Below are positions 5,564-52,878 of a stretch of 64,000 bases of DNA, in pieces. The position numbers were made by a program, and so were the translations under genes. The stretch comes from Candidatus Kaiserbacteria bacterium (GTDB lineage: Bacteria > Patescibacteriota > Minisyncoccia > Phycocordibacterales > UBA2100): assembly GCA_016186765.1 (NCBI GenBank), contig JACPLD010000002.1, positions 110,386-174,385 of the forward strand, in the 5' to 3' direction. Each line of letters opens with the position of its first letter. The stretch's first letter is position 1. The notes under the pieces are model-generated. The model was not told the DNA's origin. It did not search any database and worked only from the letters and a program-made list of their open reading frames with translations.

Positions 5564-5998
5564 ATGTCCAGCTTGCGGCTCGTGTATAATGCCTTTTTTA
5601 TGTTGCCTGATGATATTCGAAAGGGTGTCGGAAGGGGAGGAGAGGATATTGCGTGCCAATTCCTAATCCGTAAGGGATACTGGATTATTGGCAGAAACTA
5701 TCGAAAGAAGTGGGGAGAGATAGATATCGTTGCCGAAAAAGACGAGACCGTGCGCTTTATCGAGGTCAAGGCTGTCTCGGTCCGCGGGGGAGACTTTTCA
5801 CGTGAAATGCAGCGACTACCTGAAGAGCTTGTCCATAGGAGGAAACTAAGAAAGATAGCACGCACCGCAGCCCTCTATATGGAGGAGAAAAAGGATGCAA
5901 GGGAATACCAGATCGACGTAGTCGGCATAGTCATGAATCAGACAAGCCGAGTCGCGAGGTGTCGCCTCTTTGAGCAGGCTCTTGGTGAGGACTTGTAA
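5564..5998 (+). CDS. yraN: YraN/UPF0102 family endonuclease
   Basis: IACQFLIRKGYWIIGRNYRKKWGEIDIVAEKDETVRFIEVK matches the UPF0102 restriction-endonuclease-like fold family. Confidence 0.75.
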   Translation: MSSLRLVYNAFFMLPDDIRKGVGRGGEDIACQFLIRKGYWIIGRNYRKKWGEIDIVAEKDETVRFIEVKAVSVRGGDFSREMQRLPEELVHRRKLRKIARTAALYMEEKKDAREYQIDVVGIVMNQTSRVARCRLFEQALGEDL

Positions 5999-6069
5999 AC
6001 TTGGACATAAAGGACACACTGGCCCATTGATGTCTTTTATGTTTTATGTCCTATCTTTACCTTCACTTT

Positions 6070-6140
6070 TCGGGCTGCTGGGAATCGAACCCAGTCAACA
6101 TCCTCCCAAAGGATGCGTACTACCGGTATACGACAGCCCG
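6070..6140 (-). tRNA. tRNA-Pro (anticodon TGG)
   Basis: Reverse complement CGGGCTGTCGTATACCGGTAGTACGCATCCTTTGGGAGGATG...CTGGGTTCGATTCCCAGCAGCCCGA: anticodon loop TTTGGGA. Confidence 0.8.
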
Positions 6141-6159
6141 GCACCGGAATGCTAGCACA

Positions 6160-7821: not shown

Positions 7822-7986
7822 AGGTTTGAAAAAGTTATTAAAAATATGCGCGTTTTCGACCTCGCGACCATTTTGAGCCGTATTTTAGGCATGTCAACCT
7901 AGCTCTCTATTTGAGATGAATCTTGCCAGCGCGTCAAAAATGGCTTGAAATAAAAGCTTCTTTGGCGCGCTGTCTTCCGCTTGGGA

Positions 7987-9516
7987 TTATCTCGCGTACT
8001 CGATGACGCGGGTTTCGCGAATGACAGACACTTTGATCTCTCCGGGATACTGGAGTTCCTTTTCTACGCGGTCAGCGATGTCGCGGGCGAGTTTGCGGGC
8101 ATCGAGATCGGTGATTTCTTCGGGCTTCACGATGACACGGATCTCGCGGCCAGCGGAAATCGCGTAGCTCTTCTCAACACCTGCTTGCTGGTTGGCGATG
8201 GCCTCGAGTTCCTCGAGACGCTTGATGTAGTTCTCAATGGAGTCGCGGCGAGCGCCAGGGCGGCCGCCAGAGATCGCGTCGGCAACCTGTACGATCATAC
8301 TCTCCGGTGTTTCGTACGGGTATTCTTCGTGGTGCGCTTGCATTGCTTTCACCACCGCTTCGTCCACGCCAAACTTTTGCAGGATGCGCCGTCCAATCTC
8401 GACGTGCGTCCCCGGCACTTCGTGGTCGACTGCCTTACCGATGTCGTGGAAGAGCGCTCCCGCGCGGGCGACTGCTTCGTTTGCGCCAAGCTCTGCTGCA
8501 AGCATTCCGGCGAGATGGGCAACCTCGACCGAGTGGTCCAAGACGTTTTGGCCGTAGCTCGTGCGGAAGTACAGGCGCCCGAGAATCATCAGGAGCTTTG
8601 GATCAAGGTTTTGCACTTTCGCGTTGTATGCCGCTTCGGCACCCTTCTTTTTGATGATGGTATTGATTTCCTCCTCCGCTTTTTTCACCATCTCTTCGAT
8701 CTTCGCGGGCTGTATCCGGCCGTCGAGGATGAGGTTTTCCAAAGCGATTCGCGCCACTTGCCTCCTGATGGGATCGAAGGATGAAAGGGTGATAGTGCCC
8801 GGCGTGTCGTCGATGATGACGTCGACGCCGGTTGCGCGCTCGAAGGCGCGGATGTTGCGGCCCTCTTTGCCGATGATCTTGCCCTTGATCTCGTCGGAGG
8901 GGAGCGAGATAGTTGTCGCGAGCACGTCGGAGACGACGGAGTTGCCGAGCCGGTGGACGGCCGTCGTGAGAATTTCTTTTGCCCGCTGCTCTAGGCGCTC
9001 GTTGCCTGCGATTTCGAGCTTGTGCATGCGGCTCTCCAAGTCGGACTCGTACTGTTTTTCGACCGATTTCACCAAATCGTTCTTCGCTTCCTCGGCCGAA
9101 AGGTGAGCAACCTTCTCGAGCTTTTCCTGTTGCGCTTTAGCGAGCTCTTCGGCCTTCTCCTTTGCACTCGCAAGCTCGGTGCTTCGCTTAGTGAGTGTTT
9201 CCTGCTCGGTATCGAGCATGTTTTGACGCTTGTCGAGGAGCTCCTCCTTGCGCACGAGGCGCTCTTCGGTCGCTTTCAGCTCGTTCGCACGCTCCTTCAG
9301 CTCGGAGCCGATCTGTCCCTCCTTTTCTTTGGCGCGCGCTTCGGCCTCTTCGACGATGCGCTTTGAGCGTTCCTCTGCGTCGAGACGCATCTTGCGGATC
9401 TCCAGCTCCATCGAGCCGCGTTTTCCTAAGCTAATGATCAGTCGAAGAAAATAACCGATCCCAATACCGGCGATCCCCGCAAGCGCGAGGAGCAGGAGAA
9501 TCGTTTGTATTGACAT
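7987..9516 (-). CDS. rny: Ribonuclease Y
   Basis: N-terminal TM, long coiled coil, KH domain (GKIIGKEGRNIRAFE) and HD domain (LFHDIGKAVDHE). Confidence 0.85.
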   Translation of the reverse strand: MSIQTILLLLALAGIAGIGIGYFLRLIISLGKRGSMELEIRKMRLDAEERSKRIVEEAEARAKEKEGQIGSELKERANELKATEERLVRKEELLDKRQNMLDTEQETLTKRSTELASAKEKAEELAKAQQEKLEKVAHLSAEEAKNDLVKSVEKQYESDLESRMHKLEIAGNERLEQRAKEILTTAVHRLGNSVVSDVLATTISLPSDEIKGKIIGKEGRNIRAFERATGVDVIIDDTPGTITLSSFDPIRRQVARIALENLILDGRIQPAKIEEMVKKAEEEINTIIKKKGAEAAYNAKVQNLDPKLLMILGRLYFRTSYGQNVLDHSVEVAHLAGMLAAELGANEAVARAGALFHDIGKAVDHEVPGTHVEIGRRILQKFGVDEAVVKAMQAHHEEYPYETPESMIVQVADAISGGRPGARRDSIENYIKRLEELEAIANQQAGVEKSYAISAGREIRVIVKPEEITDLDARKLARDIADRVEKELQYPGEIKVSVIRETRVIEYAR

Positions 9517-9764
9517 ACGCGTGGATCAATCCACGCGCGAGTGACTATGTACGGACTGCGAGCACTTTTGAGTGTACGGAAATAAGCTCTGGCGTGGCGT
9601 TGCCGTTCATGGATTCATTCGCACGCGGGAAATTGAAAGACATAAATGCTAAGGTGTACGGCGAATATACCACCACGGTATGCAATAGGCAATAGACACC
9701 CGGCAGCAGAAGACTTCACTTCACGCCCCTGTTGAGCCATTGCCTTTTGCCGCGTGCCTTCTCC

Positions 9765-10376
9765 CTACGTAAGGACTTTGTCGATAATGCCATACTTCAC
9801 GGCCTCCTCCGAGGTCATGAAGAAGTCGCGCTCCACGTCTTTTTCAATTCGCTCAAACTTTTGGCCGGTATTTTTCGCAAGTAGCTTGTTGAGGCGTTCG
9901 CGGAGCTTCAGGATTTGCTTTGCGGTAATCTCGATGTCTGTTGCCTGACCCTCCGCGCCGCCGTGTGGCTGATGGATCATGATCTCTGCATTCGGTAGCG
10001 CGAAGCGCTTGCCTTTCTCGCCGGCAGAAAGGAGGATGGCCGCGCCGGAAGCGGCAAGCCCGACGCAGTATGTGGCGACCGCCGGCTGGATGTGATTCAT
10101 CGTGTCGACCATCGCAAGCGTTGAGGTCACCGCGCCGCCAGGGGAGTTGATGTAGAGGGAAATCTCTTTCTTCGGGTCTTCTGACTGTAAGAAAAGCAGC
10201 TGCGCGATGATGAGGTTGGCGACTTCGTCGTTGATCGGCCCGCCGAGGAAGATGATGCGCTCTTTGAGGAGGCGCGAGTAGATGTCATACGCCCGCTCGC
10301 CGAAACTGGTTTTTTCGACGACCATCGGCACAAGCATTTGTGATCGGGATGTGTTCATATGCCGAGAGTGTATCAT
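9765..10376 (-). CDS. clpP: ATP-dependent Clp protease proteolytic subunit
   Basis: [25 protein letters not shown]...INSPGG. Conserved tig-clpP arrangement. Confidence 0.9.
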
Positions 10377-11440
10377 TTTTCCTGTTTTTCCAAAAATTCG
10401 AGGGTTGCTTCGTTCCGTAAAGCGTGCGCGATGTGGGCGCGAAGTGCCACAGGGTCGGCATTGGGGATGTGTTGGCGGGCGCGTTCGACTTCCTTTTCGA
10501 GTCGTTCCTGTGACGGATCTATATGTTCCCCGCGAGCGATCTCGGAGAGAATGAGACGCACCTTCGCTCGTTTGTCGGCGGCATTAAGCCACTCTGTGCG
10601 CAATTGCTCTCGTGTTTTTTTCGCTTGCGCGAGATACGCATCGAAGTTCGTACCCATTCTTTCAAGGTCGTGCTTGATGCGCGCTTCCATGTCGTCGAGC
10701 TCGTAGCCGCGGAGCACCGAGGGGTATTTGATCGTCGACTCTTTTACGAGATCGTCGAGGATCTCGGCACGCCGCTTCTCCCGCGCCTGCATTTCTTTTT
10801 CGGTTTTAATGTTTGAGCGTACAGTTTCAGAGAATTTCTCAACACTTTCTATACCGAGCGATTGCACGAATGCCTCGTCGAGCGCTGGCAGCTCATCCGT
10901 ATCAAGAGCTCGCGACTCTTCGTGCGCTTTTTGTGGCTCAAGGCCGGCTTCCATCTTGTTGATACGCGCCTTCTCACGCCGCAAGTGGGTGAGTGCTTGC
11001 GCGTGTTCCTCGTCCGTGACAGAGATATCTTCTTTTGTCGCGTTGATGTTCGCGGCTATTCTTTTGTAGTCGGGCAGTGTAATCTCGGGCGCAAGCGGCG
11101 CGCGGGACGAGAAGTGGAGCACTTTTCCCTCCTCGATCTTCTCGATAGTTACCTTGGGAGCCTCTACTATGAGAAGGTGTTCTGCGGCAAGCAGCTCAGG
11201 AAGTTCGTGCTGTATTGCGCGCTCGGCCGCTTCCCGCAATATGGTCGGCTCGCCGTAAATCTCTATGATTCGCTCGATCGGCGCATGGCCTTTGCGGAAG
11301 CCGTCGAGCTTTGCAGATTTTTGTATGTCGTTCAGCGCTTGTGTGCGATATGTTTGTATCACTTCGAGAGGTACCTCCGCGTACACCTCGACTTCCCACG
11401 CATTCTCGTCGCGTGAGATTTTCACGTTCTGCAAACTCAT
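10373..11440 (-). CDS. tig: Trigger factor (short form)
   Basis: Ribosome-binding N-domain-like start and charged C-terminal arm. Immediately upstream of clpP. 355 aa, shorter than canonical. Confidence 0.65.
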
Positions 11441-11454
11441 CGAACGAGTCTATC

Positions 11455-11709
11455 TCATCCTGTCTCTTGCGTCGAATCTCCAGGAATAAATGGGAGTTGA
11501 TCGACGGAATTCCTGCTATTCAAATATGCTCCCCAGAAGTACAGGGCCCCGAAGCCAAGGAGGATGACAATGATAGCAGTTCCGATCCAAGCGCCAGCGC
11601 CAGCTTTTTTTGGAGCCCGGTTGTGTTCGGTGAGCATGTGCCCGGTGTCTGCGGGCGCGTTTCGCATGTTCATTGCAGGCGGCATGACACTATTATAGTA
11701 ATGAGCCAC
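11455..11709 (-). CDS. Small hypothetical membrane protein
   Basis: 84-aa ORF with one TM helix. Its 5' end overlaps the AGCCACTAGGG repeat; true start uncertain. Confidence 0.3.
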   Translation of the reverse strand: MAHYYNSVMPPAMNMRNAPADTGHMLTEHNRAPKKAGAGAWIGTAIIVILLGFGALYFWGAYLNSRNSVDQLPFIPGDSTQETG

Positions 11710-39214: not shown

Positions 39215-41356
39215 ATGGCACGAGACTACCCACTAGAGAAAGTTAGAAATTTTGGGATTATTGCGCACATTGATGCGGGGAAAACAACCACGTCGGAGCG
39301 GATCCTTTTTTACACGGGGATGTCACACAAAATCGGCGAAGTGCACGAGGGCGACACGGTGACCGACTGGATGGAGCAGGAGCGCGAGCGCGGCATCACG
39401 ATTACCGCCGCCGCCATCACGTGTTTCTGGAACCCCACGTACATGCTAGAGGACACCTCGTACAAACACCGCTTCAATATTATCGATACTCCCGGCCACA
39501 TCGACTTTACCTCGGAAGTGAAGAGAAGTATGCGCGTTCTTGACGGCGCAGTCGTCGTCTTCGACGGCGTTGCGGGTGTCGAGCCGCAAAGCGAAACCAA
39601 CTGGCGTTACGCCGAGGAGGCGAACGTGCCCCGCATCTGCTACATCAACAAGCTCGACCGCACGGGTGCCTCTTTCGAAAAATCGTTTGCAAGTATCTTG
39701 GAGCGGCTTTCAACGAAAGCCGTGCGTTTCCAGATCCCCGTCGGCGCAGAAGGAGATTTCTCCGGCGTTGTAGACCTTCTCACGATGAAAGCATACGAAT
39801 TCGAGGGTGAGATGGGCAAAGACGTCATCGCCTATGATGTGCCGAAGAATTTGAAGGCCGAGGCCGAAAAATATCGCCACGAGCTTATCGAAAAGATCGT
39901 CGAGCATGACGATGCGGTGATGCACGATTACTTGGAAGGAAAAGAAATCCCGCTTGAGACGCTAAAAAAGACACTCCGCAAAGCGGTCATCGCGAACAAA
40001 ATTTTCCCTGTCTTGACCGGCTCGTCGCTCAAGAACAAAGGCGTGCAGCTCGTCTTGGATGCTGTCGTTGATTATCTACCGAGTCCGCTCGATGTGCCTC
40101 CGGCGAAGGGCACGAATACAGACACGGGCGCCGAGGAGGAGCGCCCGGCTTCCGACGACGCTCCATTCGCAGCGCTCGTGTTTAAACTCCAAGTCGATCC
40201 ATTCGTAGGCGCGCTTTCCTTCTTCCGCGTCTATTCAGGAAGTATCGAAGCTGGTACCTTCGTCTACGATTCTGCGAACAATAAGAAAGAGCGGCTCGGC
40301 CGCATCGTGCGGCTCCAGGCCGACAAGCGCGAAGATGTGAAGATCGTCTACGCAGGCGAGATCGCAGCAGCGGTGGGTCTCAAGGAAGTGAAGATCGGTC
40401 ACACGCTCTGTGATCCGGATCATCCGATTGCACTCGAAGCAATAGTCTTTCCCGAGCCGGTCGTTTCGATGCGTATCGAGCCGAAAACAAAGGCCGATCA
40501 GGAAAAAATGGGTATCGCGCTCTCGCGCCTCTCCGACGAAGACCCGACATTCCGTGTCGCCTCTGATCCGGAGACGATGGAAACCATCGTCTCCGGCATG
40601 GGAGAGCTGCACCTCGAAATCATCGTCGATCGCATGAAGCGCGAGTTTGGCGTGGAAGCCTCGACAGGAAAACCGCAGGTCGCCTACCGCGAAACGGTGC
40701 AGGGCACGAGTGATGTCGAGTACAAGCACATCAAGCAAACAGGTGGTCGCGGCCAATATGGCCACGTGAAGATCCGCGTGAAGCCGCTTGAACCACTTGT
40801 CGCAGGGAAGAAGGTGAAGAACAACGTCGAGCGCGAGGAACACTTCGAGTTCATCAACAGCATCAAAGGAGGCGTCATCCCGCAGGAATATATCACTCCC
40901 ATCAAAAAGGGCCTCAAAGAGGCGATGGACCGCGGGGTGCTCGCGGGCTTTCCGGTCGTCGATGTGTCCGTCGATCTCTACGACGGCAGCTATCACGAAG
41001 TTGATTCATCCGAAATCGCATTCAAACTCGCAGCGATTAATGCGATGCAGGAAGCCGTGCAAAAAGCAAAGCCCGTGCTTCTCGAGCCGATCATGAAATT
41101 GGAAGTCGTGACGCCCGAGAAATTCATGGGCGACGTGACGGGCATGATCAACAGCAAGCGCGGCGCGATCGAGAGCTTGAGCGAGCGCGGGCAGGTGAAA
41201 GTTATCACCGCCAAAGTGCCACTCTCGGAGCTCTTTGGCTTCACAACGCAGCTTCGCTCACTAACCGAAGGCCGCGGCGTGCCCAACGTCGAGTTCAGCC
41301 ATTACGCTGTTGTACCTCGAAATGTTCAGGAAGAAATCATAGTGTCACGCAAGTAA
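39215..41356 (+). CDS. fusA: Elongation factor G
   Basis: AHIDAGKTTTSERIL...DTPGHIDF G-domain, full-length EF-G. Confidence 0.95.
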   Translation: MARDYPLEKVRNFGIIAHIDAGKTTTSERILFYTGMSHKIGEVHEGDTVTDWMEQERERGITITAAAITCFWNPTYMLEDTSYKHRFNIIDTPGHIDFTSEVKRSMRVLDGAVVVFDGVAGVEPQSETNWRYAEEANVPRICYINKLDRTGASFEKSFASILERLSTKAVRFQIPVGAEGDFSGVVDLLTMKAYEFEGEMGKDVIAYDVPKNLKAEAEKYRHELIEKIVEHDDAVMHDYLEGKEIPLETLKKTLRKAVIANKIFPVLTGSSLKNKGVQLVLDAVVDYLPSPLDVPPAKGTNTDTGAEEERPASDDAPFAALVFKLQVDPFVGALSFFRVYSGSIEAGTFVYDSANNKKERLGRIVRLQADKREDVKIVYAGEIAAAVGLKEVKIGHTLCDPDHPIALEAIVFPEPVVSMRIEPKTKADQEKMGIALSRLSDEDPTFRVASDPETMETIVSGMGELHLEIIVDRMKREFGVEASTGKPQVAYRETVQGTSDVEYKHIKQTGGRGQYGHVKIRVKPLEPLVAGKKVKNNVEREEHFEFINSIKGGVIPQEYITPIKKGLKEAMDRGVLAGFPVVDVSVDLYDGSYHEVDSSEIAFKLAAINAMQEAVQKAKPVLLEPIMKLEVVTPEKFMGDVTGMINSKRGAIESLSERGQVKVITAKVPLSELFGFTTQLRSLTEGRGVPNVEFSHYAVVPRNVQEEIIVSRK

Positions 41357-41576
41357 GAGTACCAAAGAACGCCTGCCCCGTAGCCAACGCGAAGCGTTGT
41401 GGTACCGGGGTCGCAGATGAGGTTATCGCCGCGAGGAAATAATCCCCAAAAGTCAGAAAAACGCTCTCGACAAAGGTAAAAAATGTGCCACGATTGAGAC
41501 ATTATCGGAGGTCAATGCCGAGAACTTCTTTGGGCCCAGTGCTCTCTCTGGTCATCCCTGAAGGGGGTTTAATCGT

Positions 41577-41684
41577 ATGAGTTTTACGCACGATGAGTAT
41601 GTGCTCGCGATATTGCAACTTAGCTTTAGCGCAGAGCAGTACCTAGAAGCAATTCTCCGCCTCGAGGCGGAGTTTTGCTTTTGA
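41577..41684 (+). CDS. Mini-ORF (35 aa) with strong SD, ending inside an intrinsic terminator; leader-peptide/attenuator candidate
   Basis: GAAGGGGG SD 7 nt upstream of the ATG. Palindrome CTCCGCCTCGAGGCGGAG + TTTTGCTTTT overlaps the stop codon. Confidence 0.3.
   Translation: MSFTHDEYVLAILQLSFSAEQYLEAILRLEAEFCF
41655..41684 (+). terminator. Intrinsic terminator-like hairpin + T-tract in the fusA-tuf spacer
   Basis: 18-bp perfect palindrome followed by TTTTGCTTTT. Confidence 0.5.
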
Positions 41685-41808
41685 CAGGCGCTTTTCCACA
41701 TGCGTTGCGCGAGCTCGAAGCCGCGTGTGCACAAACGGCATGCTCTCGGGAGACGCCCAGTATACGTATGCCGTCTGCTCTGTGACGGCGCCCTAGACTA
41801 GGCGAGAC

Positions 41809-41838
41809 TTGACGGATTCACGGCATTTTTGTTAGTAT
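41809..41838 (+). promoter_or_regulatory. Sigma70-like promoter candidate for tuf (TTGACG-N18-TAGTAT)
   Basis: Seen in sequence, ~115 bp upstream of the tuf start. Confidence 0.45.
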
Positions 41839-41954
41839 GCGCGGACGCTAGAGAGGCGGTATTTTTTTGCCCAGCTCAGCCGTAGATGCGGCGGCGAAGG
41901 CAGCCCTTCACTTTTGCGTTGGTATTAAAAAGGTAACAGTCATTTAGTAATTGT

Positions 41955-43154
41955 ATGGCAGCAGAATTTGCACGAACGAAGCCGCACATCAATGTCGGCA
42001 CGATCGGACACGTCGACCACGGCAAGACCACCTTGACCGCGGCGATTTTGAGCGTCCTCTCGAAAGCAGGGAACGGCTACACGGCGACCGTGAAAGGCGT
42101 CGACGACATCGACAAAGCACCTGAAGAAAAAGCGCGCGGCATCACCATTTCACTTTCGCACTCTGAATACGAAACGCCAAAGCGCCACTACGCACACGTC
42201 GACGCTCCTGGGCACGCCGACTACATCAAGAACATGATCACCGGTGCCGCGCAAATGGATGGTGCCATTCTTGTGGTCGCTGCTACCGACGGCGTGATGC
42301 CTCAGACACGCGAGCACATTCTCCTTGCGCGGCAGGTGGGTGTACCCAAGATCGTCGTCTTTTTGAACAAGGTTGATCAGGTGGACGACAAAGACCTTGT
42401 GGATCTCGTCGAGGAAGAGGTGCGCGAGCTTCTCACCAAGTATGAATTCGACGGCAAGAACACCCCCGTCATCCGCGGAAGCGGTCTCAAGGCGCTTGAA
42501 AACCCTGCGCCGGGCAACGAGTGGAGCGACAAGGTGATGGAGCTGGTAAAAGCAATCGATGAGTATATCCCCGAGCCGGTGCGTGAGCTCGACAAGCCCT
42601 TCCTCATGGCTATCGAAGACGTCTTCTCCATCGAAGGACGCGGTACTGTCGTTACAGGCCGTATCGACCGCGGAATCATCAAAGTCGGTGAGGAAGTCGA
42701 GATAATCGGCATCAAAGACACGCAGAAGACGATCGTCACCGGCGTCGAAATGTTCAACAAATCGCTGCAACAGGGACAAGCAGGTGATAATGCGGGCGTC
42801 CTCTTGCGAGGCACGAAGAAAGAAGACGTGCACCGCGGCCAAGTGCTCGCAAAGCCGGGCACGGTGAAGCCGCACACGGACTTCGAATCGGAGGTCTACA
42901 TTCTCACCAAGGAGGAAGGAGGTCGCCACACGCCATTCTTCTCCGGCTACAAGCCGCAGTTCTACATCCGCACCACAGATGTGACCGGCGAGGTGACGCT
43001 CAAAGAAGGAGTGGAAATGGTGATGCCGGGCGACACCGTGACATTCAAGGTGAAACTCGTCGGCCCGATCGCCATGGAAGAGCAGATGCGCTTCGCCATC
43101 CGCGAAGGCGGCAAGACCGTCGGAGCTGGCGTCGTTACGAAGATAGTTGCTTAA
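41955..43154 (+). CDS. tuf: Elongation factor Tu
   Basis: [10 protein letters not shown]...DAPGHADY, canonical EF-Tu. Confidence 0.95.
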
Positions 43155-43239: not shown

Positions 43240-43578
43240 ATGAAAAAATTCTTAGTCTTGTACCGGATGGACATGGCAGCGATGCAAAAAATGATGCAAG
43301 AGACCAGTGCAGAGGATAGGAAGAAGAGCATGGGGGAGTGGGCAGAGTGGATGAAAAAGCACATGGCGAATTTCGCCGACGCCGGTGCGCCCGTCGGGAA
43401 GACCACACATGTCACATCGAGCGGAGCTACTGATACCAGCAATGATATTGGCGGCTACTCGATAGTGCAGGCAGAGTCGAAGGAGGCCGCTGCAGCGCTC
43501 TTCGCAGACAACCCGCACCTACAGATGCCCGGAGCAATCGTTGAGCTGATGGAGATAGTGCCGATGCCGGGGATGTAA
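43240..43578 (+). CDS. Hypothetical small protein (possibly YciI/Dabb-like fold)
   Basis: 112 aa, Met/Lys-rich N-terminus; weak resemblance to YciI-related proteins. Confidence 0.4.
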   Translation: MKKFLVLYRMDMAAMQKMMQETSAEDRKKSMGEWAEWMKKHMANFADAGAPVGKTTHVTSSGATDTSNDIGGYSIVQAESKEAAAALFADNPHLQMPGAIVELMEIVPMPGM

Positions 43579-43891: not shown

Positions 43892-44317
43892 ATGACAGCG
43901 GAAGAGAAAGTAAAAAAGGCGCGGAAGCCCCGCGCGAAGAAGGTTAGTAAACCTGTCGATGCTTCTTCCGTTGCACCCGCTCCAGCTCCCCGCGTAAAGA
44001 AGGCCGAAACCGCACATCGTCTGCGCATCAAGGTGCGCGCCTACGAGCATGGTGTTTTGGATAATTCCGTAAAGCAGATCATCGATACTGCCGCTCGCTA
44101 CAATGCAGAGATCATCGGTCCGGTGCCGCTTCCTATCGATATCAAAAAATATACGGTGAACCGCGCTGCATTCATCGACAAAGATTCTCGCGAGCAGTTC
44201 GAGATGCGCATCCACAAGCGCATGATCGACATTTTGAATCCTGCCCCGAAGGTCATCGAAGCGTTGACGAATATTGATCTCCCATCCGGCGTCAGTATTG
44301 ATGTGAAAATGATGTAA
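43892..44317 (+). CDS. rpsJ: 30S ribosomal protein S10 with a ~40-aa Lys/Ala/Pro-rich N-terminal extension
   Basis: RLRIKVRAYEHGVLDNSVKQIIDTAARYNAEIIGPVPLP... canonical S10 core. Confidence 0.9.
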   Translation: MTAEEKVKKARKPRAKKVSKPVDASSVAPAPAPRVKKAETAHRLRIKVRAYEHGVLDNSVKQIIDTAARYNAEIIGPVPLPIDIKKYTVNRAAFIDKDSREQFEMRIHKRMIDILNPAPKVIEALTNIDLPSGVSIDVKMM

Positions 44318-44406
44318 AAATCGGCAGTGTCTCTTCGAGCGTACGCTCACGCATAAAGACGGCCTCGCCGGTGAGCGACGAGGCCGATTCTGGTGTTCCG
44401 CGCATG

Positions 44407-44898
44407 TTAGCGGAACGAGACACTTGGCGACTGGCCGCTGCCTACATAGTAGAAAGTGAGCCGTGCCTGCTCGTCGTCCCACGTCGTACCGACTGATGCG
44501 CAGCGATTTCTCGCAAAAATCGGCGCGGCTCCCTCCAGGACAATAGTAGCGCCTGGAGCGATCATCCCGCTCACTGCATACTCCAAGGTGCACGTCAAAC
44601 TGCCGTATCGCTTGAAGCGTCGCGCCTTGCCCGCGAACCATCCGCCGACGATGCTCCCGGTAATGAGAGGCGTTCCCGCCTCGATGCCGATGCTCGCAAG
44701 GCCTGGTCGCGGACGCGAATACGCGATGATGAACTCGCCGGAATCCATAAATCCGGCGGACATCAGCGAGCATTCCTGTGGCACCAGGTTGCACGGCTTG
44801 CTGCCACTGTGCAGGTACCAGTCACCAGCTGTGGCTGCGCCAGGGAACAGCATAGCCACGAAAGCAATCAGAACAGTTCTCATGTGTCGTCTCCTCAA
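44407..44898 (-). CDS. Hypothetical secreted protein
   Basis: Signal peptide MRTVLIAFVAMLFPGAATA; the mature part has no recognised motif. Located in the insertion between rpsJ and rplC. Confidence 0.4.
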   Translation of the reverse strand: MRRRHMRTVLIAFVAMLFPGAATAGDWYLHSGSKPCNLVPQECSLMSAGFMDSGEFIIAYSRPRPGLASIGIEAGTPLITGSIVGGWFAGKARRFKRYGSLTCTLEYAVSGMIAPGATIVLEGAAPIFARNRCASVGTTWDDEQARLTFYYVGSGQSPSVSFR

Positions 44899-45032
44899 GA
44901 TTCACTCGGACTCGCAACAGGCGAGCCGAGGCTGCGTGAACTATAGCCCTGTGTCTACGGCGTGTCGAGAAGCGGGACGTTGGAAAAAAGCAGCCCGCTC
45001 GAAAGCGGGCCGTATCGGCAGAGGTCGCACAT

Positions 45033-45812
45033 TCATTGCAGGCTTGCGGCCGTGGCTTTCATCAGCATCCCGTGGATGTCACGGACCATCTGCCATTGTA
45101 CGTCGCGTTTCCCAAGAAGCGTCTCGACGTTTATGTAGGACTTTCCGTCCTTCCCATACCGGTACGAGAGGCTTCCGTCGTTGATGTCGTGCGCAGGGTC
45201 CTGATACACGACGCTCACATTCTGCTTCGTAAACTTCGCGAAAAGGTCCTCGGTGGTGACGATCACGAAGTTGTACGCGCCGCCCGCGCCGATGTGCACG
45301 AACGTCTTTCCATTCCCGCGGTAGTACAAACCAACCTTCGCATACGAAAGGATGCCGTAGCCGCGTCCCGCGTTGTTGTGCAGTGCGACGAGCGGCATAC
45401 TGCTCGCGCACAGCGCAAGGATGCGATCCGCCAGGCTCTGTACCGCCACATATGCCTTCGGGTCTATGGGCCCGCTCGCGCGCAGCGTGCGCACGATTCC
45501 TTCGTGAGTGAAGATGCGGTTGGGATCGAATTCGTGCTCAATGGTGCCCAGTCGGAAGGAAACCATCCTCCCGCGCGCGTGTATGAGGTCGATAAAACGC
45601 CCGCCGAGTTCCGCAACAAGACGTTCGCCAACGACGCCGGCGTCGATTTCGTTGTGATGAACCCTGATGAACGTCGGCCCTTCGCCGCGATGGAATTCGC
45701 GCAGCGTTACCGTGGTGTCACCCATGTGCACTATATGATCGGTTCTGACCGTGTCCGTCTGTGCAGGCGTGGCAAAGAGAAGTGCGAACGCGATGACGAT
45801 GTGAAAGAACAT
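45033..45812 (-). CDS. Secreted zinc-peptidase/amidohydrolase-like protein (M14 or AstE/AspA-like; tentative)
   Basis: Signal peptide; HxxE-type candidate zinc motif (RVHHNEIDAG) and a second His (LVALHNN). Family assignment is tentative. Confidence 0.35.
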   Translation of the reverse strand: MFFHIVIAFALLFATPAQTDTVRTDHIVHMGDTTVTLREFHRGEGPTFIRVHHNEIDAGVVGERLVAELGGRFIDLIHARGRMVSFRLGTIEHEFDPNRIFTHEGIVRTLRASGPIDPKAYVAVQSLADRILALCASSMPLVALHNNAGRGYGILSYAKVGLYYRGNGKTFVHIGAGGAYNFVIVTTEDLFAKFTKQNVSVVYQDPAHDINDGSLSYRYGKDGKSYINVETLLGKRDVQWQMVRDIHGMLMKATAASLQ

Positions 45813-45902
45813 CTCATGCCCTCCTTCGCTTGAGTGGGGATGATAGTGTAATTAAAGCACGCGGGGCGCGGAGTCGGAAGCACTTTTTCCGATCCGCGGT
45901 AT

Positions 45903-45962
45903 GCAGCACTCACCAATATTGATTTGCCGTCAGGAGTTTCGATAGACGTAAAAATGATGTAG
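45903..45962 (+). pseudogene. Orphan recoded copy of the rpsJ 3' end (encodes AALTNIDLPSGVSIDVKMM*)
   Basis: In-frame translation matches the last 18-19 residues of rpsJ (44261..44317), with almost every synonymous position changed. Upstream sequence does not match S10. Confidence 0.6.
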
Positions 45963-46059
45963 TTGTTTGGGTCTCCCGCCGCCGAATCCTCTAGAGCATT
46001 GTCAACACGCCCGGCTACCTTACGCGCGTGTTCGGCTTTGCGCGCAGTATACTGGTGTC

Positions 46060-46518
46060 ATGCAGGCGATGATGGTGCGTACGGGTGCGGCACTTTTGGG
46101 CGCTCTTTTTCTCGTTGGGACAATGGCAACGTTCGTGTGGGCGCAGAGTGATACGGAGCTCGAGGCAACGATCCGCACGGCTATCCTTTCGGACCCGCGT
46201 TCGTCGCAGATGTCGGAAGCGGAGATTGACGCAATGGTCGCGGTGCTTGCTGAAGGAGCCAAGGCAGAGGGAATCACCTCTGAAGACATTCTCTGGCGGC
46301 CGCAAGAGATAGCTTCGGAGACGGAATCGAGCGAGGCGTGCGGCTATGCCGCATTTCTCTGCGCTTTGAACGATGCATTCGGCCTCACTGGCTCCGCGGT
46401 TCTCATCCCGCTCCTCCTGGGAATTACCTCGGCGCTCTTGCTTTTTGTCATCGGCTCAATTCTTCTGCATAGCCACGGCCGCCATCCGTTTGTCGGAAGC
46501 TTGCGTACGGAGGAGTAA
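46060..46518 (+). CDS. Hypothetical membrane protein (N-terminal signal/TM, C-terminal TM)
   Basis: ORF with hydrophobic termini, located between the rpsJ remnant and rplC. Confidence 0.4.
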   Translation: MQAMMVRTGAALLGALFLVGTMATFVWAQSDTELEATIRTAILSDPRSSQMSEAEIDAMVAVLAEGAKAEGITSEDILWRPQEIASETESSEACGYAAFLCALNDAFGLTGSAVLIPLLLGITSALLLFVIGSILLHSHGRHPFVGSLRTEE

Positions 46519-46626
46519 GTGTATATAGTGCGCCCACGCCTTTGGAGGCGTTCCATGTCCCCATAAGGGACCAATGGTTGGGCTCGACGCTCGCCATTGC
46601 GAGCGTTTTGCATTGAAGGCGACACA

Positions 46627-47223
46627 ATGAAATACATGCTCGGCACGAAGGGAAGAATGACACAAGTCTTCGACGACGAGGGCACCGTTCATGCCGCGAC
46701 GATCGTGAGCGCGGGGCCTCTAACCGTCACCCAGCTGAAGGCGCCCGAGAAAGACGGCTACAGCAGCGTGCAGGTTGGCTACGGTGCCGCGAAGAGCTCG
46801 CGCGTGAACAAAGCCCAAGGCGAGAAGCCATTCCGGCACTTTCGAGAGTTTGCAAGCGACACGCTCCCCGAAGTAGGCGCAACAATCGACGTTTCTGTGT
46901 TTTCTCCCGGCGATGTTGTTGCCGTTTCCGCCGTTTCAAAAGGGAAAGGGTTCCAAGGTGTCGTGAAGCGACACGGCTTCCACGGCGGTCCGCGCTCTCA
47001 CGGTCAGAAGAACAAGGAGCGCGCGCCCGGCTCGATAGGAGGCGGGGGTAGAGCAGGGGCGCGCGTCATTAGGGGAATGCGCATGGCGGGTCGCATGGGA
47101 GGAATGCGCGTCACGGTGAAGAATCTGCGGGTGCTGCAGGTGGACACGGCTCATAACACTCTTCTCATTTCTGGGGCAATACCGGGCTCTCCGGGAACGC
47201 TTGTCGAAATCAGGGGATCCTAG
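46627..47223 (+). CDS. rplC: 50S ribosomal protein L3
   Basis: MLGTKGRMTQVFDDEGTVHAATIV... canonical L3. Confidence 0.9.
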   Translation: MKYMLGTKGRMTQVFDDEGTVHAATIVSAGPLTVTQLKAPEKDGYSSVQVGYGAAKSSRVNKAQGEKPFRHFREFASDTLPEVGATIDVSVFSPGDVVAVSAVSKGKGFQGVVKRHGFHGGPRSHGQKNKERAPGSIGGGGRAGARVIRGMRMAGRMGGMRVTVKNLRVLQVDTAHNTLLISGAIPGSPGTLVEIRGS

Positions 47224-51071: not shown

Positions 51072-51275
51072 ATGGCCGATATAAAACAGTACAGTGTTGA
51101 AGATCTAAAAAAAGAGATCGCCGATAAGCGGGAAGCGCTTCGAGCGTTTCGCTTCGGCGGGGCTGGCAGCCGCACGCGAAACGTGCGAGAAGGGCGCAAC
51201 CTTCGTAAAGAAATCGCGTGGATGCTCACCGAACTTCGCGCCCGGGAATTGGCCTCGAAGAAGAAAACAACGTAA
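51072..51275 (+). CDS. rpmC: 50S ribosomal protein L29
   Basis: Sequence and position. Confidence 0.85.
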   Translation: MADIKQYSVEDLKKEIADKREALRAFRFGGAGSRTRNVREGRNLRKEIAWMLTELRARELASKKKTT

Positions 51276-51288
51276 GATACGTCGCCGT

Positions 51289-51561
51289 ATGGAACAACCT
51301 ATGCGTGCAGGGAAAGAGCTGCGAGGGGTCGTCGTGAAGACGGCCATGAAGGACACGGCGACCGTGCTCGTCGAGCGCTTCGTCCCACATCCGAAATACA
51401 AGAAGTATCTCCGCCGGGGCAAGAAGTATCTCGTGCACGATCCCGGCAATACGCTGCGGGTGGGGGAAAAGGTCACGATCAGAGAATCGAGACCGATTTC
51501 GAAGCGGAAGCACTTCACGCTAATCTCCGCCGAAGGCGGATCCGCCTCAGGCGGAAAATAA
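51289..51561 (+). CDS. rpsQ: 30S ribosomal protein S17
   Basis: Sequence and position. Confidence 0.85.
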   Translation: MEQPMRAGKELRGVVVKTAMKDTATVLVERFVPHPKYKKYLRRGKKYLVHDPGNTLRVGEKVTIRESRPISKRKHFTLISAEGGSASGGK

Positions 51562-51564
51562 TAT

Positions 51565-51945
51565 ATGTTACAGGACAGAAGTATCGTAAAAATAGCAGAC
51601 AACTCCGGCGGCATCATAGGTCGGATCTTCAAGATTTTGGGTGGCTCGAAAAAGCGTGCAGCGGAGATCGGAGACGAAGTCGTCATCTCGATCCAGACGG
51701 CGCAACCGCGCAAGCTCGTCAAGAAAAAAGAAGTGCACCGCGCTGTCGTCGTACGCCAGAGCAAGCCGTACCGTCGTTCAGACGGCTCATACGTACGTTT
51801 TGACGAGAATGCCGTGGTCCTTGTCGTGGGCAGCGGCAAGGAGCCGAAAGAACCGAAGGCAAACCGCGTGTTCGGTCCCATCCCACGAGAGCTCGTGACT
51901 CGCGGCTACCAAAAGATCGCCTCGCTTGCGCCTGAAATCGTATAA
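51565..51945 (+). CDS. rplN: 50S ribosomal protein L14
   Basis: MLQDRSIVKIADNSGG... with a small internal insertion. Confidence 0.9.
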   Translation: MLQDRSIVKIADNSGGIIGRIFKILGGSKKRAAEIGDEVVISIQTAQPRKLVKKKEVHRAVVVRQSKPYRRSDGSYVRFDENAVVLVVGSGKEPKEPKANRVFGPIPRELVTRGYQKIASLAPEIV

Positions 51946-52030
51946 CGTCTATGAAATTGAAAAAAGGAGACCCCGCTACCACAAATCCTTCGGATTTGGC
52001 TACGGGGCAAGGCAAAACGTACTAATCAAT

Positions 52031-52342
52031 ATGAAATTACGCAAAGGTGACAAAGTTGTTGTTATCGCAGGCAAGGAACGAGGGAAGACCTCTACCATCG
52101 TTCGCGTGCTTCCTCGGGAGGACTTGGTCATTCTCGACGGGCTCAATCTCGCGAAGCGCCATCGCCGTCCTTCGGCCAGAAATCGTAAGGGCCAAATCAT
52201 CGAGCGCGCAATGCCGATGCACGCTTCCAATGTGATGGTTGTCGATCCAAAAACAGGCAAGCCCACGCGCGTGAAGATTGTTCGAGGCAAAGACGGATCG
52301 CGCGAGCGCTTCGCGGTCAAAAGCGGCCAGTCCATCAAATAA
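52031..52342 (+). CDS. rplX: 50S ribosomal protein L24
   Basis: MKLRKGDKVVVIAGKERGK KOW motif. ORF track starts at 51926. Confidence 0.85.
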   Translation: MKLRKGDKVVVIAGKERGKTSTIVRVLPREDLVILDGLNLAKRHRRPSARNRKGQIIERAMPMHASNVMVVDPKTGKPTRVKIVRGKDGSRERFAVKSGQSIK

Positions 52343-52344
52343 CT

Positions 52345-52878
52345 ATGAAGGCAAAGACGCAGCAACGAGCGTTCGCCGCACTCAAAGCAGAGTTCGGCTA
52401 CACGAACATCATGCAAGTACCGAAGATCGTTAAAATCGTGATTTCGAGTGGCGTGGGTGGCGTGAAAGACCAGAAGCGACGAGAGCTCATCGTCGATCGA
52501 CTTAAGCGCATCGCGGGCCAGGCACCCGCACCGCGCGGCGCCAAAAAGTCCATCGCAAATTTCAAGAGTCGCAAGGGCGAAACGATAGGCTACCAGATGA
52601 CGCTTCGAGGTGAGCGCGCAGAGGCTTTCTTGCAGAAGCTCATCCACATCGCGCTGCCGCGCACCAAAGACTTTCGCGGCATTTCGCCGACCTCGATCGA
52701 CGAAATGGGTAACATTACGATCGGCATCAAGGAGCATACGGTGTTTCCAGAAACTGCGGATGAAGACTCAAAGGACATCTTTGGCCTTGCCGTTACCATT
52801 GCGACGACTGCAAAAAATAAGAAGGAGGCCGAATCATTCCTCCGCCATATCGGTCTCCCGCTACGCGCAGAGAAATAG
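52345..52878 (+). CDS. rplE: 50S ribosomal protein L5
   Basis: Sequence and position. Confidence 0.9.
   Translation: MKAKTQQRAFAALKAEFGYTNIMQVPKIVKIVISSGVGGVKDQKRRELIVDRLKRIAGQAPAPRGAKKSIANFKSRKGETIGYQMTLRGERAEAFLQKLIHIALPRTKDFRGISPTSIDEMGNITIGIKEHTVFPETADEDSKDIFGLAVTIATTAKNKKEAESFLRHIGLPLRAEK

What the first reader, a model, noticed from the sequence alone, without database searches (positions are those of the whole stretch)
43892..46626. Universally conserved rpsJ-rplC junction broken by a ~2.3-kb insertion bounded by a recoded duplicate of the rpsJ 3' end
S10 (43892..44317) is normally followed directly by L3. Here about 2.3 kb intervenes. It carries two minus-strand genes (a secreted protein at 44407..44898 and a secreted M14/AstE-like zinc hydrolase at 45033..45812) and a plus-strand membrane protein (46060..46518).

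At 45903..45962 an orphan segment translates in-frame to AALTNIDLPSGVSIDVKMM*, the exact C-terminus of S10. Nearly every synonymous position differs from the functional copy at 44261..44317, including switches between the TCN and AGY serine codon families. That pattern is what integrative elements leave at the 3' ends of housekeeping genes: the element brings a gene-end mimic and the native end is displaced and decays. No integrase remains, so this is either a decayed or integrase-less island, or an old rearrangement under selection to keep the S10 reading frame. The cargo is secreted enzymes, which could be cell-wall or host-interaction functions.
Basis: partly seen in the sequence, partly recalled or inferred. 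Interest (0 to 1): 0.75.

Follow-up and report, generated by a model that had tools for sequence, protein, structure and literature searches.

The report
Gene cassette inserted into rpsJ's end
A 1.6-kb block from a related Kaiserbacterium was inserted about 57 nt before the end of the S10 ribosomal-protein gene, bringing a replacement gene end and pushing the original end downstream. The same integrase-free process recurs across this clade and builds arrays of small cassettes, mostly toxin-antitoxin modules.

Summary
rpsJ (43892-44317) is followed by two minus-strand genes, then by a 57-60 nt start-less copy of its own 3' end (45903-45962). That copy has 18/19 identical residues, with 16 nucleotide differences, all synonymous. 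Eight independent per-run assemblies reproduce the structure exactly.

The remnant is the native end. It sits 98 nt before the membrane-protein gene that directly follows intact rpsJ in 12 related loci. The working rpsJ is a mosaic whose last ~45-70 nt resemble the rpsJ of the only other genome with the same two cargo genes behind rpsJ (permutation p 0.001-0.03).

No integrase, att core or attC-like fold was found. Remnant 5' edges in relatives vary from -172 to -32.

The event is not unique. About a dozen distinct Kaiserbacteria loci carry rpsJ-end remnants. These include arrays of 3-4 cassettes (MazE/Doc, Fic, AbiE, MNT/HepT, PIN), each closed by an rpsJ-end copy. tuf, fusA and rplB show the same scars.

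The rpsJ-rplC junction is not conserved in this clade.

Best reading: host recombination anchored in the conserved gene, not an integrase island.

Verdict: new variant of a known kind, moderately interesting.

The parts
43892..44317 (+). rpsJ (ribosomal protein S10), 141 aa, intact. It is a mosaic: the 5' part is native and the last ~45-70 nt are imported.
   Evidence: Pfam Ribosomal_S10 at 5.6e-30. Informative-site test: the 5' part resembles L004 and other close relatives, while the 3' end resembles L081. The breakpoint lies at -70..-43 from the end of the stop codon, permutation p 0.001-0.027 with six references.
44261..44317 (+). Working 3' end of rpsJ, which arrived with the insert (the 'gene-end mimic').
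   Evidence: It is 48/57 identical to the rpsJ end of L081/L082, the genome with the homologous cargo behind rpsJ. It is only 40/57 identical to L004 and to the remnant.
44318..45902 (.). Imported cargo block. Together with 44261-44317 it makes a 1645-nt insertion.
   Evidence: Direct-repeat spacing is 1645. The block is absent from relatives that have rpsJ directly followed by the membrane-protein gene. GC is 0.587 (96th percentile) and tetranucleotide distance is unremarkable.
44360..44386 (-). Terminator-like hairpin after the 158-aa gene, lying between the convergent rpsJ and the cargo genes.
   Evidence: Consensus scan: 11-pair stem with 9 GC pairs. This is a consensus match only.
44407..44883 (-). 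Cargo gene 2: a 158-aa protein with a hydrophobic N-terminus (an alternative TTG start at 44898 gives 163 aa). It is the conserved partner of the hydrolase; its function is unknown.
   Evidence: No Pfam hit. It is 49% identical to the ORF next to the hydrolase homologue in L082 and 33% identical to the one in L083. The only database hit is itself. The signal peptide is inferred by eye.
44991..45012 (-). Terminator-like hairpin after the 259-aa gene.
   Evidence: Consensus scan: 9-pair stem followed by a T-run.
45033..45812 (-). Cargo gene 1: a 259-aa protein, probably secreted, with an M14/AstE-type zinc carboxypeptidase/amidase fold.
45903..45962 (+). Displaced native 3' end of rpsJ (remnant): the last 18-19 codons plus the stop codon, with no start codon.
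   Evidence: nhmmer E = 4.7e-9. It is closer to ordinary Kaiserbacteria rpsJ ends (L009 49/57, L004 45/57) than to L081 (41/57). Over 159 rpsJ genes, similarity to it tracks similarity to the window's rpsJ 5' part (r = 0.61, against 0.41 for the working end).
46060..46518 (+). Native 152-aa membrane-protein gene, the ancestral downstream neighbour of rpsJ in this clade.
   Evidence: Homologues begin ~70-260 nt after an intact rpsJ in 12 related loci (L002, L008, L114 and others), and lie upstream of rplC in L004, L008 and L018. No Pfam hit.
46627..47223 (+). rplC (L3), the start of the rest of the ribosomal-protein operon, which is uninterrupted through to secY.
   Evidence: Pfam Ribosomal_L3; ORF lists.

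Best explanation
**What happened.** A 1,645-nt piece of DNA from another Kaiserbacteria-like lineage was inserted into rpsJ about 57-60 nt before its end. The piece consisted of the donor's last ~57 nt of rpsJ plus the two genes lying behind rpsJ in the donor: a secreted M14-like zinc hydrolase and its 158-aa partner.

**The junctions.** The left junction lies inside rpsJ and is in register. The gene therefore now ends with the donor's synonymous-recoded codons and still encodes the same protein. The right junction joins the upstream region of the hydrolase gene to the recipient's own rpsJ at nearly the same position. The recipient's original gene end survives as an untranslated remnant directly in front of its original neighbour, the membrane-protein gene followed by rplC.

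**Mechanism (inferred).** The cassette carries no recombinase. The most likely route is the host's own recombination acting on DNA taken up from outside. Pairing in the highly conserved rpsJ sequence serves as anchor on one side, and an illegitimate or microhomology join, or repair of a break using the foreign copy as template, closes the other side.

**Wider pattern.** The same process has happened many times in this clade behind rpsJ, tuf, fusA and rplB. It usually delivers toxin-antitoxin or Abi modules. Repeated rounds stack cassettes into arrays in which each cassette is closed by an older rpsJ end.

**Shown versus inferred.** Shown: the structure, its reality, the xenologous origin of one copy, which copy is native, the recurrence and the absence of an integrase. 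Inferred: the molecular mechanism and DNA uptake. The confidence of 0.7 is for lateral acquisition with displacement of the native end; for the specific integrase-free, one-sided-homology mechanism it is about 0.45.
For: 1. **Both copies evolved under purifying selection.** There are 16 synonymous and 0 non-synonymous differences, and a neutral model is rejected.
2. **The working rpsJ is a mosaic.** It resembles close relatives up to about -64 and resembles L081 afterwards, with permutation p = 0.005, 0.001, 0.027, 0.008, 0.02 and 0.003 for six references. For five of the six references the breakpoint coincides with the remnant's 5' edge.
3. **A donor-type arrangement exists.** L081/L082 and L192 carry homologues of both cargo genes (62% and 49% identity) immediately behind rpsJ in the same orientation. 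Their rpsJ end is among the closest to the window's working end (48/57).
4. **The remnant keeps the ancestral position.** It lies 98 nt before the membrane-protein gene, as intact rpsJ does in 12 loci.
5. **No mobility gene.** No integrase or resolvase was found in any of about 200 rpsJ loci by tblastn or in the precomputed Pfam lists. The only Xer-like gene lies 43 kb away at 7-702.
6. **No fixed site.** Remnant 5' edges run from -172 to -32 and no motif is shared at the cargo|remnant joints.
7. **Recurrence and arrays.**
   - L006 carries MazE+Doc, L011 carries MNT+HepT and L010 carries AbiEii.
   - L200 reads Fic | MazE+Doc | AbiEii+DUF6922, with each cassette followed by an rpsJ-end copy.
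   - L081 has at least 3-4 cassettes.
   - The same scars occur at tuf (L017), fusA (L030, L041, L060) and rplB (L031).
8. **Remnants come from the same sequence pool as working ends**.
9. **The structure is real.** Eight independent assemblies are identical.
10. **Literature.**
   - Homology-facilitated illegitimate recombination integrates linear DNA with homology at one end only (PMC3240628 abstract).
   - Patescibacteria carry comEC, pili and recombination genes, and their transferred genes are enriched in ribosomal proteins and tuf (PMC12455944).
Against: - No donor sequence and no empty-site strain was found, so neither junction can be read at nucleotide resolution.
- The mosaic test rests on about 50 informative sites in a 300-nt gene. 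The closest reference genomes are only 83-88% identical.
- Classical homology-facilitated illegitimate recombination usually deletes recipient DNA rather than duplicating it. A duplication needs a break-repair or sister-chromosome variant.
- Only 3'-end remnants were seen, never 5'-end ones. That asymmetry hints at a directional mechanism or at strong selection.
- Remnant edges cluster loosely near -93..-103 and -32..-40, so some site preference may exist.
- The integrase search used three query sequences recalled from memory and would miss very divergent recombinases.
- A recombinase acting in trans cannot be excluded.
Confidence: 0.7

Rival explanations
1. Integrase-mediated integrative island. 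A site-specific recombinase, now lost or encoded elsewhere, recombined an attP that mimics the rpsJ end with attB inside rpsJ.
For: The geometry is exactly what such elements leave. Integrative elements usually target a conserved gene and preserve its function (PMC7192596 abstract). Crossover and remnant edge coincide. Short identical runs exist (AATATTGAT, AAAATGATGTA). A Xer-like recombinase gene lies in the window at 7-702. Only 3' ends are affected.
Against: No integrase lies in or near any of the cassettes in about 200 loci. Junction positions differ between cases, from -172 to -32. No motif is shared at the joints. The inserts are tiny (0.03-2.5 kb, 0-4 genes). No viral contig carries an rpsJ-end copy. 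The two copies are only 72% identical.
Confidence: 0.15
2. Self-propagating circular cassettes. Recombination between the working rpsJ end and a remnant excises a circle holding cargo plus one rpsJ-end copy. The circle re-enters any related genome by a single homologous crossover in rpsJ. The result behaves like an integron without an integrase, with the rpsJ end as the recombination site.
For: Arrays of cassettes are each closed by an rpsJ-end copy (L081, L200). In L200 one remnant is 100% identical to the working end over ~73 nt, which suggests ongoing exchange or conversion between copies. The cargo is rich in toxin-antitoxin modules. Restriction-modification units inserted with long direct duplications and no mobility genes have been proposed to cycle in this way (PMC2853133).
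Against: The window's copies share at most 11 identical nt in a row, which is too little for RecA-type crossover within the 57 nt. MazE/Doc cassettes in three genomes have different remnant edges (86, 109, 117 in profile coordinates) and show no excess similarity of their right-hand copies. Remnants do not form a lineage of their own. There is no attC-like fold. No circles have been observed.
Confidence: 0.2
3. The remnant is kept because it is functional, for example because it holds the promoter or a leader element for the membrane-protein gene and the rplC operon. Only insertions that duplicate it would then be tolerated.
For: Remnants are strikingly well preserved in many loci (listing). 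rpsJ transcription probably stops at the hairpin between rpsJ and the convergent cargo, so downstream genes need their own signals.
Against: No promoter-like site was called in the remnant and there is no Rfam match. Remnants in other genomes precede unrelated genes, and some are degraded or split (L081 A, C, D). Detection favours well-preserved copies.
Confidence: 0.1
4. In-situ tandem duplication of the rpsJ end followed by divergence, or an assembly chimera of two strains.
For: Direct repeats flanking an insert can arise by target duplication (PMC2853133). Metagenome assemblies can mis-join at conserved genes. L028 shows a duplicate across an N-run that looks like a scaffolding artefact.
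Against: Sixteen differences with no amino-acid change are incompatible with neutral decay of a duplicate. Eight independent assemblies give the identical sequence across both copies.
Confidence: 0.02

Closest known systems
'Insertion with long target duplication' of restriction-modification units (Nobusato/Furuta/Kobayashi; PMC2853133)
   Same: A small selfish or 'addiction' gene unit is flanked by long (>30 bp), variable-length direct repeats of a sequence that is single-copy in the empty genome. There are no transposase or integrase genes. The repeats sometimes overlap a gene's 3' end. Cases occur mostly in naturally competent bacteria. A cycle of invasion, amplification and release was proposed.
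   Different: There the repeats are near-identical (e.g. 45/46, 417/423). Here they differ at nearly every synonymous site, so one copy came from another lineage. The cargo here is toxin-antitoxin or Abi modules or a secreted hydrolase pair, not restriction-modification systems. The target is always the coding 3' end of a translation gene. Events stack into arrays.
Integrase-borne integrative genetic elements that target the 3' end of conserved genes (tRNA, tmRNA, protein genes; PMC7192596)
   Same: The insert supplies a substitute gene end so the target stays functional. The displaced native fragment marks the far end. Repeated use of one site gives tandem arrays (the last point is from general knowledge).
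   Different: There is no integrase, no fixed crossover position and no conserved core. The inserts are 0.03-2.5 kb rather than many kb.
Homology-facilitated illegitimate recombination during natural transformation (PMC3240628 abstract; Acinetobacter and pneumococcus work known from the field)
   Same: One end of the incoming DNA recombines by homology, here in rpsJ as the mosaic shows, and the other end joins without homology. No mobility genes are needed.
   Different: The classical outcome is replacement or deletion, not duplication of part of the anchor. Neither competence nor the joint has been demonstrated for this organism.
Chromosomal integron cassette arrays
   Same: Ordered arrays of promoter-proximal small cassettes, rich in toxin-antitoxin modules, are separated by a repeated recombination element.
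   Different: There is no IntI. The repeat is a piece of an essential gene's coding sequence, not a folded attC. The cassettes have their own orientation and signals.

Membership tests
Integrase-mediated integrative element / genomic island | A tyrosine or serine recombinase gene inside or next to the insert | tested here: not met
   tblastn with XerD, lambda Int and gamma-delta resolvase (sequences recalled from memory) finds only a Xer-like gene at window 7-702, 43 kb away, and nothing in any rpsJ locus. The precomputed Pfam lists for L081/L082 contain no integrase.
Integrase-mediated integrative element / genomic island | A fixed crossover position with an identical att core shared by independent insertions | tested here: not met
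   The longest identical run is 11 nt. Remnant 5' edges lie at -172, -103, -98, -86, -75, -58, -40, -32 and other positions in different loci. No motif is shared at the joints.
Integrase-mediated integrative element / genomic island | The insert restores the target gene, and the displaced native fragment lies at the far end | tested here: met
   rpsJ is intact. The mosaic breakpoint falls at the remnant edge. The remnant lies next to its ancestral neighbour.
Insertion with long target duplication (Kobayashi) | The insert is flanked by direct repeats >30 bp that are single-copy at the empty site, with no mobility genes | tested here: met
   A 57-nt repeat. The rpsJ end is single-copy and directly followed by the membrane-protein gene in 12 loci. 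No mobility genes.
Insertion with long target duplication (Kobayashi) | The repeats are nearly identical, i.e. the target was duplicated at insertion | tested here: not met
   Identity is 72% and all differences are synonymous, so the copies have separate evolutionary histories.
Homology-facilitated illegitimate recombination | One junction lies inside homologous sequence and produces a mosaic gene | tested here: met
   Maximum chi-square test with permutation, p 0.001-0.027 for six references.
Homology-facilitated illegitimate recombination | The second junction forms at a microhomology with no extended homology, and the host can take up DNA | not testable with these tools
   No donor or empty-site sequence was found. 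Competence genes are reported for the phylum only in the literature (PMC12455944).
Integron cassette array | An IntI integrase and folded attC sites | tested here: not met
   No integrase. The rpsJ-end DNA folds no better than shuffled sequence on either strand (z +0.9 to +1.3).
Peptidase M14 / AstE-AspA zinc hydrolases (the 259-aa cargo protein) | A match to the family's sequence models | tested here: not met
   No Pfam hit even at E = 10. A profile search of PDB sequences is empty.
Peptidase M14 / AstE-AspA zinc hydrolases (the 259-aa cargo protein) | The carboxypeptidase-A-type fold with H-x-x-E ... H zinc ligands, plus R and N-R substrate-binding residues and a catalytic E | tested here: met
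Toxin-antitoxin cassette (the window's cargo) | A recognisable toxin and antitoxin pair | tested here: not met
   The window's two cargo proteins have no Pfam match. The toxin-antitoxin identity holds only for cassettes in relatives.

The most novel reading that the evidence does not exclude
Kaiserbacteria, and more widely Paceibacteria, may possess an integrase-independent cassette-capture system. In it the coding 3' ends of highly conserved translation genes (rpsJ, tuf, fusA, rplB) serve as universal recombination sites. Small modules travel between lineages attached to a piece of the gene end, insert so that the essential gene is always repaired, and pile up as arrays. The modules are mostly toxin-antitoxin or Abi systems, and here a secreted peptidoglycan-type hydrolase pair. 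This would be a functional analogue of an integron built only from host recombination and sequence conservation, and it would give a mechanism for how toxin-antitoxin modules spread in genomes that almost lack classical mobile elements.
Probability: 0.3. Interest if true: 0.8.

Novelty: new variant of a known kind. Interest (0 to 1): 0.6.

Why it matters
Candidate Phyla Radiation bacteria have tiny genomes with few recognisable mobile elements, yet they show much gene exchange, oddly enriched in ribosomal proteins and tuf (PMC12455944).

These scars offer a concrete footprint of how that exchange may work. Conserved translation genes act as landing pads, and the incoming DNA repairs the gene it interrupts.

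It would also explain how toxin-antitoxin and abortive-infection modules move without transposases or integrases. It would explain why the str/S10 gene order, used as a syntenic marker and for phylogenomics, is scrambled in this clade.

There is a practical consequence. rpsJ, tuf and fusA in these genomes can be mosaics, which matters for marker-gene phylogenies and for strain tracking.

Tried and rejected
- **Pfam on the three insert-region proteins.** No hits, even at E = 10. A profile search against PDB sequences was also empty.
- **Homology search with the 158-aa protein.** It found only itself. Its homologues had to be found through gene neighbourhood.
- **Empty-site strain.** A look-up by exact S10 protein sequence returned only contigs that carry the insert.
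- **Closer donor.** The best hydrolase homologue is 62% identical. P0003 had no DNA available, and P0004 sat on a short contig without rpsJ.
Tetranucleotide distance is ordinary (67th percentile). GC is only mildly high, and GC3 is like that of neighbouring genes. The test is uninformative for a donor of similar composition.
- **Rfam and tRNA scans of 38-48 kb.** Nothing above threshold.
- **rpsJ-end pattern in IMG/VR viral contigs.** No match.
- **attC-like folding of the rpsJ end.** None.
- **Whether remnants travel with cargo.** Comparing three MazE/Doc cassettes gave no signal either way: left-left and right-right identities were equal.
- **Whether remnants form their own sequence lineage.** They do not (p = 0.13).
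- **Long minus-strand ORFs inside the ribosomal-protein operon (51105-52737).** They looked like further insertions but are antisense artefacts over L14/L24/L5.
- **L028 duplicate.** It lies across an N-run and was set aside as a probable scaffolding artefact.


Full report
**1. What is in the window.**
- The region reads fusA (39215-41356), tuf (41955-43154), a YCII-like gene (43240-43578) and rpsJ (43892-44317).
- Two minus-strand genes follow, at 44407-44883/44898 and 45033-45812.
- Next comes a start-less copy of the rpsJ end (45903-45962), then a 152-aa membrane-protein gene (46060-46518).
- rplC follows at 46627-47223, and the rest of the ribosomal operon runs uninterrupted to secY, adk and map.
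- The hydrolase protein is identical to NCBI HYW60_02150 from a Candidatus Kaiserbacteria metagenome-assembled genome.

**2.
- The repeat finder's top direct repeat is 44260-44316 against 45905-45961: 57 nt, 72% identity, 1645 nt apart.
- In frame the second copy reads AALTNIDLPSGVSIDVKMM*, 18/19 identical to the S10 C-terminus.
- It has 16 nucleotide differences in 54 coding nt and none changes an amino acid. In simulation even four random substitutions leave the peptide intact with P = 0.002.
- The copy has no start codon after the upstream in-frame stop.
- Eight Logan assemblies of separate sequencing runs are 100% identical over the whole structure, so it is not a mis-assembly.

**3. What the synonymous pattern means.**
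- A duplicate made in place would decay at all codon positions. Differences confined to synonymous sites mean both copies diverged while each was the working end of an rpsJ gene, in different lineages.
- They were brought together recently. One copy is therefore foreign.

**4. Which copy is native.** Three lines agree that the remnant is native and the working end is imported.
- **Position.**
  - A homologue of the membrane-protein gene begins ~70-260 nt after an intact rpsJ in 12 related loci (L002, L008, L114, L122, L127, L146, L157, L177, L178, L184, L205, L213). It also lies upstream of rplC in L004, L008 and L018.
  - In the window the remnant sits 98 nt before that gene.
- **Mosaic structure.**
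  - Against the closest relative by flanking DNA (L004) and against L081, informative sites in the window's rpsJ read 30:13 for L004 up to -70 and 2:11 from -64 onward.
  - With six different references the permutation-corrected p values are 0.005, 0.001, 0.027, 0.008, 0.02 and 0.003. Five of the six breakpoints fall between -70 and -43, at the remnant's 5' edge of -60/-57.
- **Affinity.**
  - The working last 57 nt are among the closest to L081/L082 (48/57). The remnant is closer to ordinary Kaiserbacteria ends (L009 49/57, L004 45/57, L081 41/57).
  - Over 159 rpsJ genes, similarity to the window's 5' part predicts similarity to the remnant (r = 0.61) better than to the working end (r = 0.41).

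**5. Where the cargo comes from.**
- The hydrolase has few close relatives. The nearest (62%) lies in L081/L082 and L192, immediately behind rpsJ, in the same orientation and with a homologue of the 158-aa gene (49%) between them.
- A donor-type arrangement 'rpsJ - small gene - hydrolase' therefore exists elsewhere.
- In a third lineage the pair sits after dnaK-dnaJ, which shows the two genes form a conserved module.
- The insert's composition is close to the host's, as expected for a donor from the same group.

**6. The cargo proteins.**
- The 259-aa protein has no Pfam or PDB sequence match.
- H52-x-x-E55, R82, N98-R99, H145 and E230 are invariant.
Both proteins have hydrophobic N-termini; a signal peptide is inferred by eye.
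- The Legionella homologues labelled 'protein tyrosine phosphatase' are probably misnamed.

**7. The junction is not conserved in this clade.**
- Of 58 related loci holding both genes, 23 have more than 500 nt between rpsJ and rplC.
- Among the closest relatives, at least six have 8 kb downstream of rpsJ without rplC.
- The tuf-rpsJ distance varies from about 0.1 kb to more than 8 kb.
- rpsJ is an island of conservation between two variable regions.

**8. The event is recurrent.**
- A profile of the last 183 nt of rpsJ finds extra copies, always on the same strand and downstream. In the genome set these are in L005, L006, L010, L011 and L081.
- Among 120 metagenome contigs retrieved with an rpsJ-end pattern, 12 contigs carry them (about 8 distinct organisms). 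Only 65 of the 120 have at least 1.5 kb of downstream sequence.
- Remnant lengths differ between loci: 19, 32, 34 and about 46-55 codons, among others.
- The cargo between rpsJ and the remnant is usually a toxin-antitoxin or Abi module:
  - MazE+Doc in L006, L191 and L200;
  - DCC1-like+MNT+HepT in L011;
  - AbiEii(+SWIM) in L010, and AbiEii in L189;
  - HepT in L098;
  - Fic in L200.
- Some inserts are only 12-190 nt with no ORF (L005, L213, L149, L117).

**9. Arrays.**
- L200/L207/L148 read rpsJ | Fic | r1 | MazE+Doc | r2 | AbiEii+DUF6922 | r3.
- L081/L192 read rpsJ | 158-aa homologue + hydrolase homologue | degraded remnant | AbiEii+DUF6922 | remnant | small ORF+PIN | marginal remnant | AbiEi-like+AbiEii | remnant.
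- Every copy ends at the stop codon, and the sequence after it is unrelated.
- This is what repeated insertion into the current working end would give: each round pushes older ends and cassettes downstream.
- In L200, r2 is identical to the working end over ~73 nt apart from a mutated stop codon, while r1 differs only synonymously. Copies of both local and foreign origin therefore coexist.

**10. Other genes.** The same scars follow several other translation genes. No 5'-end remnants were found.
- tuf in L017, with Fic cargo.
- fusA in L030, L041 and L060.
- rplB in L031.

**11. Mechanism.**
- No integrase or resolvase lies in any rpsJ locus.
- There is no shared motif at the joints, no fixed position, no attC-like fold and no viral copy.
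- Remnants are drawn from the same sequence pool as working ends.
- The coincidence of the mosaic breakpoint with the remnant edge fits a single-point insertion. A break in rpsJ, or an invading foreign strand, pairs in the conserved gene. The donor's gene end and downstream genes are copied or ligated in. The far end is then joined without homology to the recipient's own gene end.
- This is closest to homology-facilitated illegitimate recombination (PMC3240628) and to the 'insertion with long target duplication' described for restriction-modification units (PMC2853133).
- DNA uptake and recombination genes are reported for the phylum, and its transferred genes are enriched in ribosomal proteins and tuf (PMC12455944).
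- The mechanism is inferred, not shown. A trans-acting recombinase or a circular-cassette cycle remain possible.

**12. Verdict.**
- The framing as a unique break of a universal junction by a decayed island is not right.
- It is one clear, recent example of a clade-wide, integrase-free way of inserting small cassettes at the 3' ends of translation genes.

Noticed in passing
L200 (oriented) 7955-11659; also L207 155-3858 and L148: A three-cassette array behind rpsJ: Fic | MazE+Doc | AbiEii+DUF6922, each followed by an rpsJ-end copy. The second copy is 100% identical to the working end over ~73 nt but its stop codon is TCA instead of TAG. The first copy differs only at synonymous sites in codons -54..-22.
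   Followed up: partly
L081 900-6330 (rpsJ on minus strand at 5920-6282); L192 is the same arrangement: At least 3-4 stacked cassettes (hydrolase pair, AbiEii/DUF6922, PIN pair, AbiEi/AbiEii) are separated by rpsJ-end remnants in different states of decay. Two remnants share the substitutions 'FTTI' in place of 'LTNI'. Two carry a similar ~66-nt internal insertion flanked by GGTACC.
   Followed up: partly
L017 5919-5981; L030 2929-3030; L041 5229-5300; L060 6123-6167; L031 7237-7284: Displaced 3'-end remnants of tuf, fusA (three loci) and rplB lie downstream of the intact genes in other Paceibacteria. Small inserts sit between them: a Fic protein, an FAD-oxidoreductase-like gene and pairs of small ORFs. 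No 5'-end remnants were seen.
   Followed up: partly
L005 8409-8461; L213 166-230; L149 2460-2592; L117 1587-1866: Very short inserts (12-190 nt, no ORF) lie between rpsJ and a partial rpsJ-end copy. In L005 the insert is essentially a perfect 20-nt palindrome (CCTGCCTGCCGGCAGGCAGG). These could be excision scars or hairpin mini-insertions.
   Followed up: no
window 44135-44255 (rpsJ positions about -180 to -63): This stretch of rpsJ is 82-95% identical at DNA level across species whose other synonymous sites are saturated, while the last 60-90 nt drop to ~70-80%. It could reflect frequent recombination, codon constraints or an embedded signal.
   Followed up: no
window 7-702: A XerD-like tyrosine recombinase gene, cut by the window's start (43% identity to E. 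coli XerD over 181 aa). It is probably the housekeeping dimer-resolution enzyme and is the only recombinase-like gene detected in any sequence examined.
   Followed up: no
window 45033-45812 and homologues P0021-P0094: The hydrolase family has ~35% identical homologues throughout Legionella, annotated 'protein tyrosine phosphatase'. The M14/AstE-type fold and zinc-site residues suggest that name is wrong.
   Followed up: partly
window 43240-43578 and 41357-41954: A YCII-like gene sits between tuf and rpsJ, with homologues upstream of rpsJ in L012, L015, L018 and L020, sometimes duplicated. A 600-nt gap with no ORF, tRNA or Rfam hit separates fusA from tuf. Both sides of rpsJ are hypervariable in this clade.
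   Followed up: partly
L028 2492-2647: An rpsJ-end duplicate lies directly across a run of N. It is probably overlapping contig ends left by scaffolding rather than a biological remnant.
   Followed up: no
L004 8602-11569; L007 11615-14599; L018 1513-4447: Two large conserved genes (~490 and ~505 aa, with weak PKD/Ig-like hits) occupy the rpsJ-to-membrane-gene interval in the window's closest relatives, with no detectable remnant. This would be an older or different kind of insertion at the same junction.
   Followed up: no
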